Virus record (IMG/VR): IMGVR_UViG_3300045988_060496
Span: 114,625 to 178,624 of that record
Source of the DNA: a virus
DNA length: 64,000 nt
Direction: 5' to 3' (one strand)
Positions 6,034 to 63,514 of this stretch are shown here, piece after piece; position 1 is the first letter of the stretch; every line of letters begins with the position of its first letter. A model generated the notes under the pieces. It did not search any database, was not told where the DNA came from, and worked only from the letters and a program-made list of their open reading frames with translations. Made by a program: the position numbers and the translations under genes.

Positions 6034-6846
6034 CTATCCGCATACATCTATCACTGTTAAATTATTATTACTAGGCTTATATCCGTAATCACAATATGAA
6101 TTAGTTATTATAACACGATCAAAATTGTTACACAGCTTTACCAAGCCTTCGATATTTACAGCATGACAAACTATGATCTCGAATTTAGAGTCTGGATATC
6201 TCTCTTTAAGAACTTTAAGCTCTCCAAGGAATGTTCCTCCAGCATCACACAAATCATCAATAAAGGTAAAGGTCGGACAATAACAATTAACCTCTCTTCC
6301 AATGGAAAACTCCTTAATCTTACCAGTTTCCAAATCTCTCACTTTATTGAACACAATATGTCCCCAATTATTAGAGAGAATTTTGTACCTTTGGTAAGCT
6401 CCAGCGTCTGGGAACACAATATTAGATTGAACATCCAGATGCGATTCAAAGTTAAACTTTTGAGGATAACATCTAGTTCCTAACAATCCCTTAGTTCTTT
6501 CCGAATGGGGTTCCAAAATCATAACATAACGATAGTTCATAGTATTCAAGATACTACAAACCACCTTTAGAGAAAATGGGCGGTTAAAGTCCATTACTCT
6601 ATCCATACGCATGGACATTAGATAGGTAATAAACAAATCCCACTCAATCTCTTGTCTATCAAGAATGTCTCCGACTTGAGTTAGAATAAATAATTCTTCA
6701 GCAGAAGTAATTCTACATATAACCTTTACTGAATCTTTCCTATCAAATTCGTCAGGAAAACTTATCTGAGGTTCTCCGTCAGGAAATCTAGTGAGATTAT
6801 ACTTAATCTCACTCTTGTCCAAGTTAATTAAGTTTAATAATTTCAT
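6034..6846 (-). CDS. ribose-phosphate pyrophosphokinase (PRPP synthetase) family protein; candidate ADPR-pyrophosphate synthetase of an NAD-reconstitution (NARP1-like) pair
   Basis: Prs-like motifs FPDGE (cf. FSDGE), SMRMDRVMDF (cf. ARQDR), IVFPDAGA (cf. VSPDAGG), IDDLCDAGGT (PRPP-binding DDxxDTGGT). Confidence 0.6.
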   Translation of the reverse strand: MKLLNLINLDKSEIKYNLTRFPDGEPQISFPDEFDRKDSVKVICRITSAEELFILTQVGDILDRQEIEWDLFITYLMSMRMDRVMDFNRPFSLKVVCSILNTMNYRYVMILEPHSERTKGLLGTRCYPQKFNFESHLDVQSNIVFPDAGAYQRYKILSNNWGHIVFNKVRDLETGKIKEFSIGREVNCYCPTFTFIDDLCDAGGTFLGELKVLKERYPDSKFEIIVCHAVNIEGLVKLCNNFDRVIITNSYCDYGYKPSNNNLTVIDVCG

Positions 6847-7315
6847 CTACAACATATTTTAAAATTTCGTAACTTTCTTCTAAGCCTGCTCTATCATCCA
6901 GTAAAATATTATAATAGGGCTTTTTAGAATTTGGGAATAGTCTACTACTTGTAAAGGGAGGTATGATCATATCATTGATAAGATTCCCTACCCTCATTTG
7001 AACACACTCCACTTGTTTCTCTATAATTTTATCTTCATCTTCTTCAGTGGAAAATAAAATCATTTCAAAACCTAGCATAGTACAATGTCTCAATAAGTTG
7101 ACGACACAACTATAGTCTCCTCCATTATTATGGTAGTCAAAAATAGTGTTATCATAATCGAAAGCGACTATTAGCTTTCCATATTTCTTGTACTCTTCTA
7201 ATAGTCGCTTCTTGCAAGCCTCTTTTCCAAATGGATGGTTAAAACTTTCCATAAAGCCCTTCATTAATCCGCTGTCTAATTTCTTTAAGAGTGTACTCCT
7301 TTTTAAGGACGCCAT
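6824..7315 (-). CDS. HAD-like hydrolase (possible); true start probably internal Met near 7264
   Basis: IVAFDYDNTI resembles HAD motif I DxDxT; 77-nt overlap with upstream gene suggests a later start. Confidence 0.35.
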   Translation of the reverse strand: MASLKRSTLLKKLDSGLMKGFMESFNHPFGKEACKKRLLEEYKKYGKLIVAFDYDNTIFDYHNNGGDYSCVVNLLRHCTMLGFEMILFSTEEDEDKIIEKQVECVQMRVGNLINDMIIPPFTSSRLFPNSKKPYYNILLDDRAGLEESYEILKYVVDEIIKLN

Positions 7316-8801
7316 CTTCGAACACAGTCTCTAAGCAGCCTCCGCTTTCTACCTCAGGAGTTACCTGGTCTTCAGCATAGTAAACGCCATTAACGTCCTG
7401 ATAGACAGCAATTAGACCTTTAAGAGAATTTTTAGTTCCATCATCTGTTTTAGGATGTTTGAATATTTCTTTCAATTCTCCATTAATTACACAAGCAGTA
7501 GCCTTAATTGCAAATCCTAAGCTATCTCTACTTGCATACTGATATGAAAATGAACCTACTCCTAGAACAAGATTGCAAGCTGCCATATGAGCATTCTCAA
7601 GTCTCATGTAGATTTGTTTCTGACGTTCAAGAGTGATAGAATCACCATACAACAAACCTATTTTCGTACTAGGATAGCGATAATCCTTAGAAGTAGTATT
7701 CCATCCAAAAATCTTACCAAGCATATAATAAGCACCGTAGTATTGACCTTCTGAAACTTCTACATACTCAGCATCATCGTTAAATGGGGCATAGCAACAA
7801 TAATACTTACCCTCTTTCATCCTGGTATGGAAGTGGGGATTAGTTCTCAGCCCACAAATAATATCAACAGGGTCTCCGCTATCTGGACGAATAACTACAC
7901 GTCCATCACGAGCCATAATATCCTTCTTTAATTTGGGAAGGAAGTTTTCAATAACATTCCAGAAGTCCCAAGTATCAGAAACTATAGAAACGAACCCAGA
8001 TGGATACAATTCGTTAATTAATCGCTTAAAGGTTTGAAGTTCATCCTCTTCTCCACCAGCACACATTACAGAATGTTCTGTAGCTGGAACAGTGGCGGCA
8101 ATTAATTCATTGTCAGAATTTGCACCATAATATTCTTCTAGAGCAGCAATAGCTGGAATGGTCTCACTTCCAACAAACGAAGTCATATGTGCCATACCAG
8201 AAATGATAGCGGCCTCTAAACCAGCCATTCCTCTCATAGAGAAGTCATGACACAAGAAATCCAGATTTACATCTTCTGGAAATCCAGTATGTACTGCGTG
8301 TCTTTTAAGTTCATTCTTATAGAGTCTTGCTCTAGTAGCAGAGGTGCAAGGCATCCACAGAGTACAACTAATCAAAGTCTCTAAATAATTAGTTAACCAG
8401 AAGAACTCTGACTTTGTATTAGTAATAGTCATCATAGGAACCCTAATAGGACACACTGAACCTTCTGGCAACGCTTTAATGCGAATGGGAAGATAACCTA
8501 AATCATACAAGGCTTCAATATGTTTATATCCTACGGACTCAATTCCCACGAAGTTATGAACTCTTCGATAAAACATTTCTACAGCTTTCTCTTTGGGCAA
8601 TCCAAAGAAATTCTTGTTAAATTCGTCAATCAAATACCTTTTAATTAAGTACTGGATTCCGAATACTACAGAACCTTCAGTGGCTTCTGGAAAGTATTTG
8701 TTGCTTCTGGGAGTCCAATTACTGTAAACTTGTTCAGTACCTTCTGGGTACATTCTGTGGTGGCCCAATTTATAGCCATCTGTTGCATTAATTATTTCCA
8801 T
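7239..8801 (-). CDS. nicotinamide phosphoribosyltransferase (NAMPT/NadV) family protein
   Basis: N-term INATDGYKLGHHRMYP (cf. TDSYKVTHYKQYP), DFSMRGMAG, VPATEHSVM, VSDTWD, RPDSGDP: type II PRTase NAMPT signature set. Confidence 0.75.
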   Translation of the reverse strand: MEIINATDGYKLGHHRMYPEGTEQVYSNWTPRSNKYFPEATEGSVVFGIQYLIKRYLIDEFNKNFFGLPKEKAVEMFYRRVHNFVGIESVGYKHIEALYDLGYLPIRIKALPEGSVCPIRVPMMTITNTKSEFFWLTNYLETLISCTLWMPCTSATRARLYKNELKRHAVHTGFPEDVNLDFLCHDFSMRGMAGLEAAIISGMAHMTSFVGSETIPAIAALEEYYGANSDNELIAATVPATEHSVMCAGGEEDELQTFKRLINELYPSGFVSIVSDTWDFWNVIENFLPKLKKDIMARDGRVVIRPDSGDPVDIICGLRTNPHFHTRMKEGKYYCCYAPFNDDAEYVEVSEGQYYGAYYMLGKIFGWNTTSKDYRYPSTKIGLLYGDSITLERQKQIYMRLENAHMAACNLVLGVGSFSYQYASRDSLGFAIKATACVINGELKEIFKHPKTDDGTKNSLKGLIAVYQDVNGVYYAEDQVTPEVESGGCLETVFEDGVLKKEYTLKEIRQRINEGLYGKF

Positions 8802-8814
8802 TCTAAAAATTATT

Positions 8815-9339
8815 TTAATAACTAATTGTTAATAAACTTTTCATGCCTTTACCACTAGCTAAATTCTTAAAACACTGAGTGATAAATTCCTTCGTTTCTG
8901 GATGGATAGCCCTAGGAGAATTTATATACTTAATCCACCAGTTATATTCTCCTTGAAAACTATTACCATTGTATGCTTTGCCGGCAGCTAGATAATCGCA
9001 TACCAATTCCAGAGCATACTCTTTAGGCATCTTCACTGGAACGCCTCCAATGTCTAGCTTAGTTACCCAGTACTCGTAATGATGTGGATTTCTTCCTCTG
9101 TGATGTAAATAAGACCTAGAATATCCTAGAATTTCTTTTTCCTTGTTTAAGGGAGATGTGTTATCATCGTAAAATTTTACAGAACGAGAGAACTCATACC
9201 ATCCGAATTTAGATAAGTCGTGCAAGACACCCTGTTTGTATAGACCTAACTGAAAACAGTAATAAGCTACCCAAAACTTATGTCTAAGTATTCGCCTAAG
9301 GTGTTTCAGTGTTATACACATACATTTAAGAATTTCCAT
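8815..9339 (-). CDS. HD-domain-like protein (putative phosphohydrolase)
   Basis: VLHDLSKF (H..HD..K-like) followed by a His-rich LHHRGRNPHH segment. Confidence 0.35.
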   Translation of the reverse strand: MEILKCMCITLKHLRRILRHKFWVAYYCFQLGLYKQGVLHDLSKFGWYEFSRSVKFYDDNTSPLNKEKEILGYSRSYLHHRGRNPHHYEYWVTKLDIGGVPVKMPKEYALELVCDYLAAGKAYNGNSFQGEYNWWIKYINSPRAIHPETKEFITQCFKNLASGKGMKSLLTISY

Positions 9340-59890: not shown

Positions 59891-60103
59891 ATGGGAACAA
59901 TTTATATTGAAGGACAGTTTAAGAGTTCTGCCAAACCAGTAAAAGTTGTTGGAGGAAGTATAGGAGGAGGCTCTGGAGTAGACTAGGAAGTTCTCAAGAA
60001 CTATGCTACTAAAGCAGAATTGTAGAAGGCTGTTGAGGACCTAACTGCTTCCATAGAGGGAATAGATCACGATGTAGTTGGTGAAACTTTAATAATACAA
60101 TGA
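59891..60103 (+). CDS. TAG-recoded small protein (70 aa)
   Basis: MGTIYIEGQFKSSAKPVKVVGGSIGGGSGVD-Q-EVLKNYATKAEL-Q-KAVEDL..., TGA 60101-03. Confidence 0.35.
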
Positions 60104-60104
60104 T

Positions 60105-61922
60105 ATGGCAGCAATCAAATCTATAAAGGTTGGGGAAACCACATACGATTTAAAAGCTACTTACGATGGTGCTGGAAATGTTATAGATACGACATATGCC
60201 AAAGCTAATGCAATTCCAACTAAAACTTCTTAGTTACAGAATGATAGTGGATATTTGACTGAGCATTAGGATATTAGTGAATTAGCTACTAAGGGTGAGC
60301 TTGAAGGCAAAGTAGATAAGGAGTTAGGAAAGGGACTTTCTGAAGCCAATTATACTGAAACTGAGAAGGAAAAGTTAAGTACTATAGCTAATAATGCTAA
60401 TAATTATGTACACCCAACTACTTCTGGAAATAAACATATTCCATCTGGAGGAGCGTCTGGATAGATGCTAGTTTTCTCAGCAGATGGTACTGCTGAATGG
60501 GCAGATTCAAGTTCTAAGCTAGAAGAGCAATTTACAGCACTAAATGAGGCTTGGGAAGAATTGTAGAAGGCACAACAAAAGCTTGATAAGTAGGTTACTG
60601 AGCTAAATAGTAATATGGATTTATATTCCTATGGAGTAGAATGGGATGTTACAGTAGCATCTCCGGAACTTACTAGAATAGGTAATCCTTTGTTGCATAA
60701 ATCTCTTCCTATTCAGTCAGCGTATAGAGGTTGTGTAGCAAACAATGATGTAGTAAATTACTATCTGTTTCCAGATGACTGGTCTTATAAAGAAGACGGC
60801 GAAACTCCATCTGTCTTAGATGGAACTGATGGAACAGTAAGAGTTAATACTCCTAAATTTTATGGAAAATCTGGCAGCGATGGAAACAAAAGATGGGTTA
60901 GAACTTCTACTGTCAAAATTGATGATTCATGGGTAGAAATTCCTGAACTATTAATAGATGCATACAGAAGTACAGTTGATACCACAGTCTCCGCAACTCC
61001 AAAAGCTGTATCAGTAGTTAATACTACTACTGCATTTAGAGGTGGAGGAAATAGAGCTAACTACGATGATTATCTAACTACAGAATTAGAAACTAAGGAT
61101 ATATTCAGAAGTGATTTAGGAAAGCCTAGAACTAATATTTCTAGAGCTACTATGAGAACATATGCAACAAATGCTGGTTCAGAATTGCTATGCTATGAAT
61201 ATTACAAATGGATATTCTACTGGAATTATGTCATTGAATATGCTAATTTTAATTCTTAGGCTGCATATAATGCAGAGTTAACTGCAGATAGATATCATCA
61301 AGGAGGTTTAGGATCTGGAGTTACAGATTGGGCTAACGCAGCTACAAGTTGGTCAGGGTATAATGCAACATATCCACTTACACCTTGTGGTTACTGCAAT
61401 GAACTTGGTAACTTCACTGGAGTAAAAGATTTAGTTATTCCAGAATGTACAGCTCAAGATGGCACAAATACAGTAGCAACTCATACATTTAAAGTACCTC
61501 GCTGGAGAGGATTCGATAATCCGTTTGGAGACATTTGGACTAACCTGGACGGAGTAGTTATAATGAGAGCAGCTGCTAATGAGATTAGCACTGTCTATAC
61601 AACTACTAACATATCGGAATTTACAGACGTAGTTGGAGAGAAAACCGTTGCAGGATACGAAGTAGCATCGGATGGTTATATTAAGGCATTTGACTTAGGT
61701 GAAACCGCTGAAATAATTCCATCCGCTGTTGGAGGAAGTGCTACTACTTATATTTGCGATTACCATTACTGCAACGCAAGCAGCACAGCGCTTCGCACGC
61801 TGCTGGTGGGCAGCGGCGCGGCTTATGGCGGCGATGCGGGTCTCGGCTGTTTCTATTCTTACTATGGCGTCGGCAATGCCGATTCCGTTGTCGGGTTCAG
61901 GACTCTGAATAGAGTATCTTAA
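60105..61922 (+). CDS. DGR target 1: tail-fibre/receptor-binding protein with C-terminal variable repeat (605 aa, TAG-recoded)
   Basis: Frame 0 from ATG 60105 through track ORFs 60615.. and 61563.. to TAA 61920-22; C-terminus ...ICDYHYCNASSTALRTLLVGSGAAYGGDAGLGCFYSYYGVGNADSVVGFRTLNRVS is encoded by VR1. Confidence 0.6.
61800..61897 (+). repeat. DGR variable repeat VR1
   Basis: 98 nt aligning with TR; every VR/TR mismatch (about 20) falls on a TR adenine; GC-rich patch. Confidence 0.7.
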
Positions 61923-62000
61923 GATATACAATATAAAAATCGATTTAGATGATAAATCGTAGGATATTACTTCTAAAAACCGTTGATTGGCAAAAAAGTA

Positions 62001-62098
62001 CTGCTAGTAGGCAGCAACGCGAATAATGGCAGCAATGCAGGTCTCAGCTATTTCAATTCTAACAATGACGTCAGCAATGCCAATTCCAATGTCGAGTT
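62001..62098 (+). repeat. DGR template repeat TR
   Basis: A-rich intergenic copy ctgctAgtAggcagcAAcgcgAAtAAtggcAgcAAtgcAggtctcAgctAtttcAAttctAAcAAtgAcgtcAgcAAtgccAAttccAAtgtcgAgtt between target gene and RT. Confidence 0.7.
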
Positions 62099-62239
62099 AT
62101 TATATATTTAGAAACATTTTATTATTTTTTTTTAGTTTGCTAAGTAATATCCTTGCCTCTAGGCAAAAGATAACGTAGTGTTGAATGAAGGGTGTTAGTA
62201 GGTTAATTCTCGAACGCTTCCGATGAAATATATAAAAAA

Positions 62240-63514
62240 TTGAAACGTGTAGGATATTTGCACGAGAAAGTATACGCTGAAGATAACATCGAACTAGCTG
62301 ACGATAAAGCTAGAAGAAATAAGTCTATTAGATGTGGAATCAAGCAGCATGATAAGAATAGATTAAAAGAAAATAAGGAATTATCCGATAAGTTAAGGGA
62401 TTTGATTTATCAAACCTCTGAATATAGTACCTTTATAATATACGAACCTAAAGAAAGATTAATCTTTAGACTTCCATACTATCCAGATAGAATAACTCAC
62501 CATGCTATAATGAATATTATGGAGCCTATTTGGACTAGTATATTTATAGACCAAACATATTCCTCTATACGAAATAGAGGTATTCATAAAGTAGAGTATG
62601 ATTTGTTCAAGGTGTTATAGAAACATCCAGAAGAAACAAAGTATTGCTTGAAAATGGATATAAAAAAATTCTATCCTTCTATAACTCACGACATTTTATA
62701 CGAAATGTTATAGAGAAAGATAAAGGATAAAAAACTATTAAAACTGTTGAAAGAAATAATTTATTCAGCGAAGGGAGTTCCTATTGGAAATTATCTATCA
62801 CAATTCTTTGCAAATTTATATCTGACATATTTTGACCACTGGGTAAAAGAGGAGTTAAAATGTAAGTACTACTTTCGATATGCTGACGATATTGTGATTC
62901 TTGGTAATGACAAGAATTATTTGAGAAATGTATTAGTATCTATAAAACTATATTTGAAACAGGTTCTTAACCTAGAGTTGAAGCCTAATTATCAAATATT
63001 CCCTGTAGAAAGCAGAGGTATTGATTTCGTAGGCTATAAATTCTATCATACTCATGTTCTACTGAGAAAATCTATAAAAATGAGGATGTTTAGGCTTATA
63101 AATCTATATAAATAGAATAAGATTGATAAAGATGAATTGAATAGAAGAATGAGGTCTTATTTTGGATAGATGAAATTTTGCAACTCTAAGAACTTGCTGA
63201 GAAAGGTAGAGGAGTTAACTGGATTGAAATTCTCTAACTGGAATGGAAAAGAAGTTAACATATCTAAGTTTTATAATAAATATATTCACATTGTAGAGGT
63301 TATTGATTATGACAATCATTTTCGAGTGCATTTCATGTATAACAATAAACCCTACTATTTTAAAAGTAAGAATAGGAGATTACACTATTCTTTGCTTAGA
63401 TACAAATTTCCTATAAATTTTAAAATAACACCTTATGTTAGAGCCGAATAGAATACAAATGGACGTTTATCCTTAGACAATCCAAAAACTTGGGAACGGT
63501 ACTTATTACTATAA
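62240..63514 (+). CDS. DGR reverse transcriptase, TAG-recoded (track ORFs 62240.., 62747.., 63170.. are one frame joined by TAG codons)
   Basis: YADDIVILG (RT YxDD box), RLPYYPDRITHHAIMN, IGNYLSQFFANLYL; all three track ORFs are in the same frame (offsets 507 and 930 nt); ends TAA 63512-14. The only in-frame start candidate found was TTG at 62240, so the 5' end is uncertain. Confidence 0.65.

What the first reader, a model, noticed from the sequence alone, without database searches (positions are those of the whole stretch)
6034..8801. Adjacent PRPP-synthetase-like and NAMPT-family genes: candidate NAD+ reconstitution (NARP1-like) counter-defence pair
6034..6846 has clear Prs motifs (FPDGE, RMDR, IVFPDAGA, IDDLCDAGGT). 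7239..8801 has the NAMPT/NadV signature set (TDGYK..H, DFSMRG, ATEHS, RPDSGDP). The two are separated only by a small HAD-like ORF. Phage Prs-homologue/NAMPT-homologue pairs were recently described as an ADPR-PP synthetase plus nicotinamide ADPR transferase that rebuild NAD+ after depletion by defence systems such as Thoeris, DSR and SIR2. I found no NMNAT gene, which a classical NadV salvage route would need. That absence favours the NARP1-type interpretation, but it is inference.
Basis: partly seen in the sequence, partly recalled or inferred. Interest (0 to 1): 0.7.

Follow-up and report, generated by a model that had tools for sequence, protein, structure and literature searches.

The report
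Phage NAD-rebuilding operon with HAD phosphatase
A gut crAss-like phage carries the known two-enzyme pathway (NARP1) that rebuilds NAD+ after bacterial defences destroy it, and the small gene between the two enzymes is a different kind of phosphatase sitting exactly where sister phages carry the known helper phosphatase.

Summary
Three overlapping minus-strand genes encode a Nampt-family protein (7239-8801), a small HAD phosphatase (6824-7264/7315) and a Prs-like protein (6034-6846).

- The Nampt homologue scores 501 bits to the SpbetaL1 Namat crystal structure, against about 215 bits to true Nampt.
- It carries the published Namat-only adenine clamp (GSFSYQYASRD; T4-type NadV has GGGLLQxVxRD).
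- The Prs homologue scores 59 bits on the general Prs model. A validated Adps scores 82 and E. coli Prs 423.
- It shares clade signatures with validated Adps.

This core is not new: the original NARP1 paper already lists close relatives (DAC15, DAC17, cr126_1).

What appears undescribed is the middle gene. It is a catalytically intact capless HAD phosphatase linked to Adps/Namat in phages and bacteria, in several gene orders. In a Namat-anchored sample of 76 loci, 51 have HAD, 15 have a Poa1p-like Macro gene (the Adpp family of NARP1-AP) in the same slot, 10 have neither and none has both. I infer it feeds phospho-ADPR back into NARP1. That is unproven, and counter-examples exist.

The parts
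7239..8801 (-). namat: nicotinamide ADP-ribose transferase (Nampt-family, Namat clade), 520 aa, first gene of the three
   Evidence: Family: Pfam NAPRTase plus NAMPT_N and phrog_448 E 4.5e-182. Clade: 501 bits to SpbetaL1 Namat 9W5X/9W5W against about 215 bits to Nampt; clade with the validated SpbetaL1 and DyoEdafos Namat. Motifs: clamp helix GSFSYQYASRD, clamp loop PRSNKYF, catalytic ATEHS, RPDSGDP and YGDSI. Deviations: Glu at the SpbetaL1 D215 position and a 38-aa insertion at residues 318-355 relative to SpbetaL1.
6824..7264 (-). Capless (C0) HAD-superfamily phosphatase, 146 aa from Met18 (longest ORF starts at 7315, 163 aa). Accessory gene in the slot between namat and adps. Proposed phospho-ADPR phosphatase.
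6034..6846 (-). adps: ADP-ribose pyrophosphokinase (ADPR-PP synthetase; Prs-family, Adps clade), 270 aa, last gene of the three
   Evidence: Family: phrog_619 E 5.6e-52. Not a housekeeping Prs: TIGR01251 59 bits against a cutoff of 113; validated DyoEdafos Adps 82, E. coli Prs 423. Inside the phage Adps clade. Motifs: FPDGE, RMDR, PHS, PDAGA, flexible-loop KVRD and DDLCDAGGTF, with PHS and DDxCDxGxTF shared with validated Adps and absent from Prs. DAC15 and cr126_1 orthologues (43-44% identical) are listed as Namat-associated Adps by Osterman et al..
8815..9339 (-). DUF5662 protein, 174 aa, immediately upstream of namat (13-nt gap). Possible HD-superfamily phosphohydrolase. Membership in the system is uncertain, and it is probably only a syntenic neighbour.

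Best explanation
This is a three-gene, tightly overlapping operon (namat, HAD phosphatase, adps) in the standard-code gene block of a TAG-recoding crAss-like gut phage. It is a NARP1 NAD+ reconstitution pathway.

Mechanism of the core. When a host defence NADase (SIR2, TIR/Thoeris, DSR, SEFIR and similar) cleaves NAD+ to ADP-ribose plus nicotinamide, Adps uses ATP to pyrophosphorylate the free ribose of ADPR, giving ADPR-PP. Namat then displaces the pyrophosphate with nicotinamide, giving NAD+ directly. No NMN adenylyltransferase is needed.

The middle gene. It is a catalytically intact capless HAD phosphatase in the accessory slot of the operon. In sister phages the same slot holds the Poa1p-like Macro phosphatase Adpp (NARP1-AP). 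Most likely the HAD enzyme does an equivalent job: it removes a phosphate from a phospho-ADPR species that Adps cannot use, and returns ADPR to the pathway. Candidate substrates are ADPR-1''-phosphate made by RES-type NADases, or the monoester left when labile ADPR-PP or ADPR-cyclic-phosphate decays.

Shown here by computation: family and clade membership of all three proteins, conservation of their catalytic and specificity motifs, gene linkage, and the slot swap.

Inferred from characterised homologues: the two core reactions and the anti-defence role.

Inferred from position and enzyme class only: the substrate of the HAD enzyme. I put about 0.45 on a phospho-ADPR phosphatase. The confidence given below refers to the NARP1 core.
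For: Namat
- 501 bits to the SpbetaL1 Namat structures against about 215 bits to Nampt.
- Clamp motifs match the published Namat signature and differ from NadV.
- Clade with two biochemically validated Namat enzymes.
- Phage hits fall into two tiers: NARP1 lineages at 35-50% identity, T4-type NadV at 26-29%.

Adps
- Scores like validated Adps and unlike E. coli Prs on the curated Prs models.
- Inside the Adps clade.
- Catalytic motifs are kept, and two signatures are shared with validated Adps but absent from Prs.

Operon and published status
- 26-nt and 23-nt gene overlaps, conserved in cr126_1.
- Orthologues in DAC15, DAC17 and cr126_1 are listed as NARP1 in the original study.
- No NMNAT, Nudix, PnuC or NadR in 60 other window ORFs.

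HAD
- All four catalytic motifs are invariant, the model is confident and the fold is HAD phosphatase.
- Linked to Adps/Namat in crAss-like phages, Bacillus Bastillevirinae, Flavobacteriia, Saprospiraceae and Cohnella/Paenibacillus, in several gene orders.
- Neighbourhoods are enriched in ADPR biology: NrtR 8, NADAR 4 and ADP-ribosylglycohydrolase 3 of 15 loci.
- In 76 Namat-anchored loci: HAD 51, Macro 15, neither 10, both 0, always between Namat and Adps.
- That Macro protein's relatives are the Adps-adjacent Macro/Poa1p-like genes of Vibrio harveyi and Pseudomonas phages.
- L178 against L179: Namat 93% nucleotide identity, middle gene unrelated, Adps 72%.
- L142 against L156: 94-95% identity apart from a clean gap of about 530 bp, which is the HAD gene.

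Precedent
- The middle slot has been shown experimentally to hold ADPR-feeding enzymes twice: Macro Adpp and RyDEP in DyoEdafos.
Against: General
- No biochemistry exists for any protein of this lineage.

Namat
- The nicotinamide-contacting Asp (SpbetaL1 D215; D215A cuts activity 8-fold) is Glu here and in 132 related loci.
- The TRD of the clamp motif is SRD.
- There is a 38-aa insertion relative to SpbetaL1.

Adps
- My tree is a small NJ tree with only three Prs outgroups, two of them partial. Support for the deepest Adps/Prs split is only about 55%.
- The Bas63-like Adps homologue scores 119 bits on TIGR01251, just above the cutoff. The score criterion is therefore a gradient, not a clean line.

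HAD as an Adpp analogue
- One bacterial locus (L132) has a Macro gene, Adps and a partial HAD gene together.
- In Mucilaginibacter a family member closes a canonical NrtR-NadM/Nudix-NadV-Prs operon, so the family is not specific to NARP1.
- About 18 distant family members lie in unrelated contexts.
- Lak-B5 has HAD next to Adps but no Namat within 20 kb.
- The sampled loci are not phylogenetically independent, so '0 of 66 with both' is descriptive and not a statistic.
- The fold comparison says nothing about substrate.
Confidence: 0.8

Rival explanations
1. Classical nicotinamide salvage. The Prs-like protein makes PRPP from ribose-5-phosphate, the Nampt-like protein makes NMN from PRPP and nicotinamide, and a host or unseen phage NMN adenylyltransferase finishes NAD+ (a NARP2-like or housekeeping NadV route).
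For: Both proteins belong to the Prs and Nampt superfamilies and keep the shared catalytic residues. Characterised Namat retains about half the NMN-forming activity of human Nampt in vitro, so some NMN synthesis is plausible as a side activity. The window covers only part of the genome, so an NMNAT elsewhere is not excluded. The DAC15 annotation is mostly 'hypothetical protein'.
Against: The clamp helix is Namat-type, not the GGGLLQ/GGALLQ form seen in T4-type and Mucilaginibacter NadV. The protein scores 501 bits to Namat against about 215 to Nampt. The Prs-like protein scores 59 bits where E. coli Prs scores 423, and the purified SpbetaL1 Adps gave no product in the PRPP-synthesis test of Osterman et al.. 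No NMNAT or Nudix in 60 window ORFs, and no convincing NadM hit in the window or in the full DAC15 genome. Osterman et al. found no phage carrying both NARP1 and NARP2.
Confidence: 0.07
2. The pair is NARP1, but the HAD phosphatase serves NAD+ synthesis in another way than Adpp does. Options: it hydrolyses the pyrophosphate released by Namat/NadV to pull the reaction forward; it removes the 2'-phosphate from NADP+ or 2'-phospho-ADPR; or it recycles ribose-1,5-bisphosphate-type decay products of PRPP or ADPR-PP.
Against: The same-slot replacement by, and mutual exclusion with, a Poa1p-like Macro phosphatase in sister phages is most simply explained by equivalent function. Cells already have abundant inorganic pyrophosphatase (general knowledge). 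No structural feature seen here favours any of these substrates.
Confidence: 0.25
3. The HAD gene is an unrelated small phosphatase (for example a nucleotide or sugar-phosphate phosphatase, as its PHROG name 'phosphoheptose isomerase' might suggest) that merely travels with the NAD genes as part of a mobile accessory cassette.
For: The gene is dispensable: otherwise 94-95% identical phages lack it and 10 of 76 loci have no accessory gene. Distant family members lie in unrelated contexts. Identity within the operon is mosaic, so recombination is frequent there. The fold search gives no substrate information.
Against: Linkage to Adps/Namat persists across phyla, between phage and cellular genomes, and through several gene orders. 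Hitch-hiking does not predict that. The genes overlap by 23-26 nt, which implies co-translation. The neighbourhoods are consistently about ADP-ribose. The alternative occupant of the slot is a known ADPR-1''-P phosphatase family.
Confidence: 0.15

Closest known systems
NARP1 (Adps + Namat) of Bacillus phage SpbetaL1, E. coli phage Bas63, Bacillus phage Fado and mycobacteriophage DyoEdafos (Osterman et al. 2024; PMC12774641)
   Same: An Adps-clade Prs homologue and a Namat-clade Nampt homologue sit in one operon. The catalytic core and both adenine-clamp elements are conserved. The predicted reactions are the same: ADPR + ATP gives ADPR-PP, and ADPR-PP + nicotinamide gives NAD+. crAss-like relatives are already listed as carriers.
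   Different: The gene order is namat first and adps last, the reverse of SpbetaL1, Bas63 and DyoEdafos. A third gene lies between them. Namat has Glu for the nicotinamide-contacting Asp, SRD for TRD, and a 38-aa insertion. Adps is only about 25-35% identical to the characterised lineages. Nothing from this lineage has been tested.
NARP1-AP (Adps - Macro-domain Adpp - Namat) of Vibrio phage Gary (bioRxiv 10.64898/2026.01.28.702374)
   Same: Three-gene architecture with a small phosphatase-class gene between the two core genes. Sister crAss-like phages carry a Poa1p-like Macro gene in exactly this slot.
   Different: The middle protein here is a HAD-superfamily phosphatase and not a Macro domain, so the fold and catalytic chemistry are unrelated (aspartyl-phosphate intermediate, Mg2+-dependent). 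No Macro domain was found in the window. Activity on ADPR-1''-phosphate is inferred and not shown.
NARP1 with RyDEP (Adps - RyR-domain glycosidase - Namat) of mycobacteriophage DyoEdafos (bioRxiv 10.64898/2026.05.28.727677)
   Same: The logic is the same: an accessory enzyme inserted between the core genes converts an ADPR derivative into linear ADPR, which NARP1 then uses.
   Different: RyDEP is a glycosidase that opens cyclic-ADPR Thoeris signals. The gene here is a phosphatase, and no RyR domain was detected.
NARP2 / KVP40 NadV + NatV, and the canonical bacterial NrtR-regulated nadM-nadV-prs operon
   Same: The same two superfamilies (Prs, Nampt) and the same goal of making NAD+ from nicotinamide. 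A member of the same HAD family closes such an operon in Mucilaginibacter.
   Different: Those systems use PRPP and need an NMN adenylyltransferase. Their Nampt has the GGGLLQ/GGALLQ helix, and their Prs passes the Prs models (Pribosyltran_N plus Pribosyl_synth). The window proteins fail these criteria, and no NMNAT was found.
Capless HAD phosphatases: BT_0820 of Bacteroides thetaiotaomicron (2OBB, function unknown) and the T4 Pnkp 3'-phosphatase domain
   Same: Rossmannoid HAD core without a cap domain, the four catalytic motifs, and a size of about 120-150 aa.
   Different: Sequence identity is only 17-21%. BT_0820 is uncharacterised, and Pnkp acts on nucleic-acid 3'-phosphates. Neither is known to be linked to NAD+ genes.

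Membership tests
NARP1 (Adps + Namat) | A Nampt homologue of the Namat clade, distinct from PRPP-using Nampt/NadV | tested here: met
   501 bits to SpbetaL1 Namat 9W5X/9W5W, against 201-219 bits to Xanthomonas, human and rodent Nampt. In the NJ tree it clusters with the validated SpbetaL1 and DyoEdafos Namat, away from RB16 and 44RR2.8t NadV. Phage hits fall into two tiers.
NARP1 (Adps + Namat) | Namat selectivity-clamp helix motif GS-X-phi1-X-phi2-X-phi3-TRD, with aromatics at motif positions 3 and 7 (PMC12774641) | tested here: met
   The window reads GSFSYQYASRD: Phe at position 3, Tyr at position 7, phi1 = Ser, phi2 = Gln. Deviations are Ala at phi3 and Ser for Thr. NadV of RB16 and 44RR2.8t reads GGGLLQ.V.RD, and Mucilaginibacter NadV reads GGALLQKVDRD.
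NARP1 (Adps + Namat) | Clamp loop (beta1-beta2) with Arg/Lys/Tyr at the third position; when it is Lys or Tyr, the fourth residue does the stacking | tested here: met
   PRSNKYF aligns with SpbetaL1 PRTSRV, giving Lys then Tyr, the Bas63-type arrangement. Whether Tyr actually stacks on adenine was not modelled.
NARP1 (Adps + Namat) | Intact Nampt-like catalytic core (SpbetaL1 F189, R192, D215, catalytic His, R306, D308, G360-D361) | tested here: inconclusive
   HDFSMRG, ATEHS, RPDSGDP and YGDSI are all conserved. D215 is Glu here and in 132 related loci. It keeps the carboxylate and is fixed in the lineage, so it is probably functional, but the D215A mutant loses 8-fold activity and no Glu variant has been tested.
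NARP1 (Adps + Namat) | A Prs homologue of the phage Adps clade, separate from cellular Prs | tested here: met
   TIGR01251 scores: window 59, cr126_1 55, Zuko 77, validated DyoEdafos Adps 82, Bas63-like 119, E. coli Prs 423. The NJ tree places it inside the Adps clade, but with modest deep support and few outgroups. The PHS and DDxCDxGxTF signatures are shared with validated Adps. The DAC15 and cr126_1 orthologues are in the Adps table of Osterman et al..
NARP1 (Adps + Namat) | Adps active-site lysine (K162 in SpbetaL1 Adps) | tested here: inconclusive
   The flexible-loop Lys (window KVRD; E. coli Prs K194) is invariant in all Adps and Prs sequences aligned. I did not have the SpbetaL1 Adps sequence, so I could not confirm that K162 is this residue.
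NARP1 (Adps + Namat) | adps and namat in immediate vicinity (97% of Adps-clade genes in Osterman et al.) | tested here: met
   They are separated by a single gene of about 146 aa that overlaps both. The arrangement is conserved in all crAss-like relatives examined.
NARP1 (Adps + Namat) | Enzyme activities (ADPR + ATP gives ADPR-PP; ADPR-PP + nicotinamide gives NAD+) and rescue from NAD+-depleting defence | not testable with these tools
   This needs purified proteins, LC-MS and phage or plasmid challenge assays.
NARP1-AP (NARP1 with associated phosphatase Adpp) | A Macro-domain (Poa1p-like; PF14519/PF01661/PF20016) protein in the operon | tested here: not met
   The middle gene has no Pfam hit, and its fold is HAD, not Macro. 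No Macro domain in 60 other window ORFs, and no tblastn hit of the sister-phage Macro protein in the window. The relatives are absent from the Macro-associated table of the aRES paper.
NARP1-AP (NARP1 with associated phosphatase Adpp) | ADPR-1''-phosphate phosphatase activity that feeds ADPR to Adps | not testable with these tools
   Only positional evidence is available: same slot, 0 of 66 loci with both genes, and a cassette swap.
NARP2 (Nampt + Nmnat) | PRPP-preferring Nampt-clade enzyme plus an NMN adenylyltransferase in the same phage | tested here: not met
   The clamp is Namat-type. No CTP_transf_like or Nudix domain in the window ORFs scanned. No convincing NadM hit in the window or in the complete DAC15 genome (best E 0.25). 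The rest of this phage's genome was not available.
NARP3 (PnuC + NadR) | A PnuC-like transporter and a NadR-like bifunctional enzyme | tested here: not met
   Neither family was found by Pfam in the window ORFs. The definition is taken from PMC13464706.
Ribose-phosphate diphosphokinase (bona fide Prs) | Score above the curated cutoffs of TIGR01251 or the PRK equivalogs | tested here: not met
   59 bits against a cutoff of 113 for TIGR01251, and at most 53 bits against cutoffs of 296-536 for the others. No Pfam Prs domains reach threshold.
HAD superfamily phosphatase (middle gene) | The four catalytic motifs (DxDxT/V; S/T; K/R; DD or related) and a Rossmannoid core fold | tested here: met
   [not shown]

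The most novel reading that the evidence does not exclude
The HAD phosphatase is a non-homologous replacement for the Macro-domain Adpp. On this reading, crAss-like phages, Bacillus Bastillevirinae and several bacterial lineages run a 'NARP1-HAD' pathway. A capless HAD enzyme dephosphorylates ADPR-1''-phosphate (or a related phospho-ADPR made by RES-type NADases or by decay of ADPR-PP) to ADPR. This extends NAD+ reconstitution to defences that plain NARP1 cannot beat. It would be a case of convergent recruitment of two unrelated phosphatase folds into the same slot of one counter-defence operon. It would also assign a function to a family now mislabelled 'phosphoheptose isomerase'.
Probability: 0.4. 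Interest if true: 0.6.

Novelty: new variant of a known kind. Interest (0 to 1): 0.45.

Why it matters
The core result is confirmatory. An abundant human-gut crAss-like phage lineage carries NARP1, which implies that NAD+-depleting defences matter in Bacteroidales.

The added value is the middle gene. NARP1's known weakness is that it needs plain ADPR, and phages are known to patch this with a Macro phosphatase or a RyR glycosidase. Here a second, unrelated phosphatase fold sits in the same slot. It is never found together with the Macro gene in the sister phages sampled. It is present or absent between phages that are otherwise about 95% identical.

This gives a directly testable hypothesis and natural isogenic-like comparisons. 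It also suggests that surveys which look only for Macro domains undercount extended NARP1 operons. In the phage collection, 82 records carry this HAD gene and 1,533 carry an Adps homologue. Finally, it links a poorly annotated HAD family (PHROG 1238) to ADP-ribose/NAD+ metabolism in both phages and bacteria.

Tried and rejected
- A sequence search of the HAD protein against the PDB found only chance hits, and the same search for DUF5662 found nothing. Pfam and NCBIfam have no model for the HAD protein.
- I considered DUF5662 as a fourth component, for example a cyclic phosphodiesterase acting before the HAD enzyme. It is upstream of Namat in many loci and inside the operon in L062. I rejected it as unsupported: it also occurs without NARP1, it is rare in annotated phages, and its HD-fold similarity is weak.
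- I used the absence of NMNAT only as a minor argument. The window scan was negative. The DAC15 annotation is too sparse to be informative, and a single-query tblastn for NadM is insensitive.
- The sigma-70 promoter scan was at chance level (25 found, 25.8 expected), and no terminator-like site falls at a gene boundary. Bacteroidales promoters are not covered by that scan anyway.
- NARP3 (PnuC + NadR) was checked as an alternative classification and excluded.
- I looked for published mention of a HAD enzyme together with NARP1, Adps or Namat and found none in the searchable library. That library lacks many subscription papers.
- I could not determine whether Lak megaphages have a Namat gene elsewhere. 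Only +/-20 kb around the HAD-Adps pair was examined.
- I did not use the search of protein representatives, because it returns no annotation or context.

Full report
**What is there**

The window is part of a crAss-like (Crassvirales) gut phage. At the DNA level its nearest records are an uncultured faecal phage and Bacteroides phages DAC15 and DAC17. IMG/VR holds near-identical contigs of 95-193 kb.

On the minus strand lie four consecutive genes:
- a DUF5662 gene, 8815-9339;
- a 520-aa Nampt-family gene, 7239-8801;
- a small ORF, 6824-7315. Gene callers and homologues start it at Met18 (7264), giving 146 aa;
- a 270-aa Prs-like gene, 6034-6846.

The small ORF overlaps the 3' end of the Nampt-like gene by 26 nt and the 5' end of the Prs-like gene by 23 nt. 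The same overlaps occur in cr126_1. The three genes therefore form one translationally coupled unit.

**Is the Nampt-like protein a Namat or a NadV?**

The 2026 structural study of SpbetaL1 Namat defines what separates Namat from Nampt. The catalytic core is shared. Namat adds an adenine 'selectivity clamp' made of a variable loop and a helix with the consensus GS-X-phi-X-phi-X-phi-TRD, whose aromatic positions 3 and 7 stack on adenine.
- The window protein reads GSFSYQYASRD. SpbetaL1 reads GSFTYQYNTRD. T4-type NadV of RB16 and 44RR2.8t reads GGGLLQ.V.RD.
- Across all Namat homologues gathered, the motif sorts cleanly. The NadV of a canonical Mucilaginibacter operon has GGALLQKVDRD.
- The clamp loop has Lys-Tyr at its third and fourth positions, the Bas63-type arrangement.
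- By sequence, the best solved structures are 9W5X and 9W5W at 501 bits. The paper identifies these as SpbetaL1 Namat. Animal Nampt scores 210-219 bits and Xanthomonas Nampt 201 bits.
- A small NJ tree puts the protein with the two biochemically validated Namat enzymes, SpbetaL1 and DyoEdafos gp79.

Three deviations should be noted.
- The Asp that hydrogen-bonds nicotinamide (D215; D215A loses 8-fold activity) is Glu. It is Glu in all 132 related loci that keep the Namat clamp, so it is a fixed lineage trait and not decay.
- TRD is SRD.
- There is a 38-residue insertion at 318-355 relative to SpbetaL1.

**Is the Prs-like protein an Adps or a Prs?**

No Adps structure was found in the PDB copy. 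The best match there is an archaeal Prs at E 2e-7.

Scores on the general Prs model TIGR01251 (cutoff 113 bits):

| Protein | Bits |
|---|---|
| Window protein | 59 |
| cr126_1 orthologue | 55 |
| Bacillus phage Zuko | 77 |
| DyoEdafos gp77 (validated Adps) | 82 |
| Bas63-like homologue | 119 |
| E. coli Prs | 423 |

The protein keeps the Prs-type catalytic elements: FPDGE, R-x-D-R, the His loop, PDxGA, the flexible-loop Lys and the DD...GGT loop. It shares PHS (against DLHA) and DDxCDxGxTF (against DDxIDTGGT) with validated Adps. In an NJ tree rooted on three Prs sequences it lies inside the phage Adps clade. The tree is small, and the deepest split has only modest support.

Most directly, the supplementary tables of Osterman et al. 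already list the DAC15, DAC17 and cr126_1 proteins as Namat-associated Adps. They list the cr126_1 Nampt homologue as 'Adps-associated'. These proteins are 43-44% and 63-64% identical to the window's Adps and Namat.

**NMNAT and rival pathways**

Pfam found no NMNAT (CTP_transf_like), Nudix, Macro, PnuC, NadR or RyR domain in 60 other window ORFs. NARP2 and NARP3 are therefore not supported. This check is incomplete: the genome extends beyond the window, and the recoded late genes were not scanned. It is also not decisive, because the clamp and clade tests already exclude a classical NadV.

Its core is a new member of a known and already catalogued kind.

**The middle gene belongs to the system**

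- then KdsC, class C acid phosphatase, deoxyribonucleotidases, GmhB, HisB-N and a phage pentose-1,5-bisphosphate phosphatase.

Linkage:
- All 60 HAD-anchored IMG/VR loci have an Adps homologue nearby, and 59 have a Namat homologue.
- Bacillus phage Zuko has the order Adps-Namat-HAD.
- Among 58 bacterial genome loci, 40 have an Adps/Prs-like neighbour and 38 a Namat/Nampt-like neighbour.
- Three gene orders occur there: Namat-HAD-Adps in Flavobacteriia isolates, Adps-HAD-Namat in Saprospiraceae, and HAD-Adps-Namat in Cohnella and Paenibacillus.
- Neighbours in 15 diverse loci are rich in ADP-ribose biology: NrtR in 8, NADAR in 4 and ADP-ribosylglycohydrolase in 3.

**The slot swap**

Looking up a DUF5662 homologue led to sister phages with the order DUF5662 - Namat (78% identical to the window's) - a 164-aa Macro-domain protein - Adps. 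That Macro protein's annotated relatives are the Adps-adjacent Macro/'phosphatase' genes of Vibrio harveyi phages and the 'Macro_Poa1p_like' proteins of Pseudomonas phages. This is the Adpp family, which converts ADPR-1''-phosphate to ADPR in NARP1-AP.

In a Namat-anchored sample of 76 loci, chosen independently of either accessory gene, 51 have HAD, 15 have Macro, 10 have neither and none has both. The accessory gene always lies between Namat and Adps, and the Namat identity ranges of the two classes overlap.

At the nucleotide level:
- A HAD-type locus and a Macro-type locus share 93% identity through Namat, nothing in the middle gene, and 72% in Adps.
- A HAD-type locus and a no-accessory locus are 94-95% identical over 11.5 kb, apart from a clean gap of about 530 bp, which is the HAD gene.

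The slot has also been shown experimentally to hold a RyR-domain glycosidase that turns Thoeris signals into ADPR. The simplest reading is that the HAD enzyme is another ADPR-feeding accessory, most likely a phospho-ADPR phosphatase.

**Limits of that inference**
- One bacterial locus has Macro, Adps and a partial HAD gene together.
- In Mucilaginibacter a family member ends a canonical NrtR - NadM/Nudix - NadV - Prs operon. The family therefore accompanies both the PRPP and the ADPR-PP routes. That operon also recycles ADPR through its Nudix domain, so a phospho-ADPR or ribose-1,5-bisphosphate phosphatase would fit there too. A product-removal or decay-product-recycling role fits equally well.
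- About 18 distant members lie in unrelated contexts.
- Lak-B5 has HAD-Adps with no Namat within 20 kb.
- The loci are not phylogenetically independent.
- Fold similarity gives no substrate.

I put about 0.45 on a phospho-ADPR phosphatase, about 0.25 on another NAD-related role, and about 0.15 on an unrelated passenger.

**Novelty and literature**

NARP1 was described in 2024. The Macro-containing NARP1-AP and the RyDEP extension were described in 2026. None of the NARP papers I read, and no paper in the searchable library, links a HAD enzyme to Adps or Namat. The Macro-associated table of the aRES paper lacks cr126_1, DAC15, Zuko and BPS13.

In the annotated phage collection, 82 records carry this HAD gene and 1,533 carry an Adps homologue. 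The core is known. The HAD-bearing architecture is, as far as I can tell, an undescribed variant whose function is inferred.

**Other features seen**
- The phage recodes TAG in its late, plus-strand genes and carries two CUA-anticodon tRNAs among 23 tRNAs.
- It has a diversity-generating retroelement at the right end.
- Its DUF5662 gene looks weakly like an HD phosphohydrolase.
- The promoter and terminator scans were uninformative.

Noticed in passing
window 41733-41803 (-), 44175-44247 (+), and ORFs across 48.9-63.5 kb (+): There are two suppressor-type tRNAs with anticodon CUA (ARAGORN labels them tRNA-Pyl) flanking the strand switch. Under the standard code the plus-strand late region has 5 open frames of at least 150 codons, 1,111 aa in total. 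Reading through TAG gives 14, 5,438 aa in total, with 4-28 in-frame TAGs each. TGA or TAA read-through changes little. So TAG is recoded in the late genes, as reported for some crAss-like phages. The window holds 23 tRNA genes in all.
   Followed up: yes
window 60096-63514 (+): VR 61800-61897, TR 62001-62098, RT ORF 62207-63514: This is a diversity-generating retroelement. A 98-nt variable repeat lies at the 3' end of a 608-aa (TAG-recoded) ORF. A template repeat 201 nt downstream is 79% identical, and all 21 mismatches fall on template adenines. An ORF with a reverse-transcriptase YADD motif follows.
   Followed up: yes
[not shown]
   Followed up: partly
window 7239-8801 (-), residue in GSETIP (aligned to SpbetaL1 D215); loci L007-L064 and L142-L215: The nicotinamide-contacting Asp of Namat/Nampt is Glu in this whole crAss-like lineage (132 loci). 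Namat of other lineages and NadV keep Asp. This could alter pyridine-base recognition or be neutral. It has not been tested anywhere.
   Followed up: partly
window 7239-8801 (-), residues 318-355: There is an insertion of about 38 residues (LRTNPHFHTRMKEGKYYCCYAPFNDDAEYVEVSEGQYY) relative to SpbetaL1 Namat. It splits the HMMER alignment to 9W5X into two pieces. I did not map its position relative to the active site.
   Followed up: no
window 6034-6036 (-), and loci L007-L064: The adps gene ends in TAG, followed immediately by a second stop codon, so TAG suppression late in infection would add no extension. Among close relatives, identity is mosaic within the operon (for example L016: Namat 100%, HAD 73%, Adps 97%; L014: 99%, 76%, 66%). 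That indicates frequent recombination at the gene boundaries.
   Followed up: partly
loci L049, L086, L094 and other HAD-plus-NARP1 loci (for example L084, L089, L091, L097): Some related operons carry further ADP-ribose enzymes. Pfam finds ADP-ribosylglycohydrolase in 3 and NADAR in 4 of 15 loci. ORFs of 330-343 aa lie inside the operon in L049, L086 and L094, and these may be the glycohydrolase genes. Bacterial versions are preceded by an NrtR regulator (8 of 15). This suggests a wider family of ADPR-funnelling accessories around NARP1.
   Followed up: partly
L004/L075 (Prevotella phage Lak-B5, MK250024.1 about 413-414 kb): The Lak megaphage has the HAD gene immediately followed by an Adps homologue (46% identical to the window's), but there is no Namat homologue within +/-20 kb. 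Whether Namat lies elsewhere in the 540-kb genome was not determined.
   Followed up: partly
PHROG 1238; RefSeq annotations of cr126_1, cr111_1, BPS13, Zuko and others: The HAD phosphatase family is propagated in RefSeq phage records as 'phosphoheptose isomerase'. Its motifs and fold are those of a HAD phosphatase, so the name is probably a misannotation.
   Followed up: partly
L102, L105, L106 (Mucilaginibacter chromosomes): This is a canonical NAD salvage operon: NrtR, NadM/Nudix, NadV (GGALLQKVDRD) and Prs (Pribosyltran_N plus Pribosyl_synth). A member of the same HAD family follows directly in L106, and after one to three intervening ORFs in L105 and L102. This is a link between the HAD family and PRPP-based salvage as well.
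   Followed up: partly
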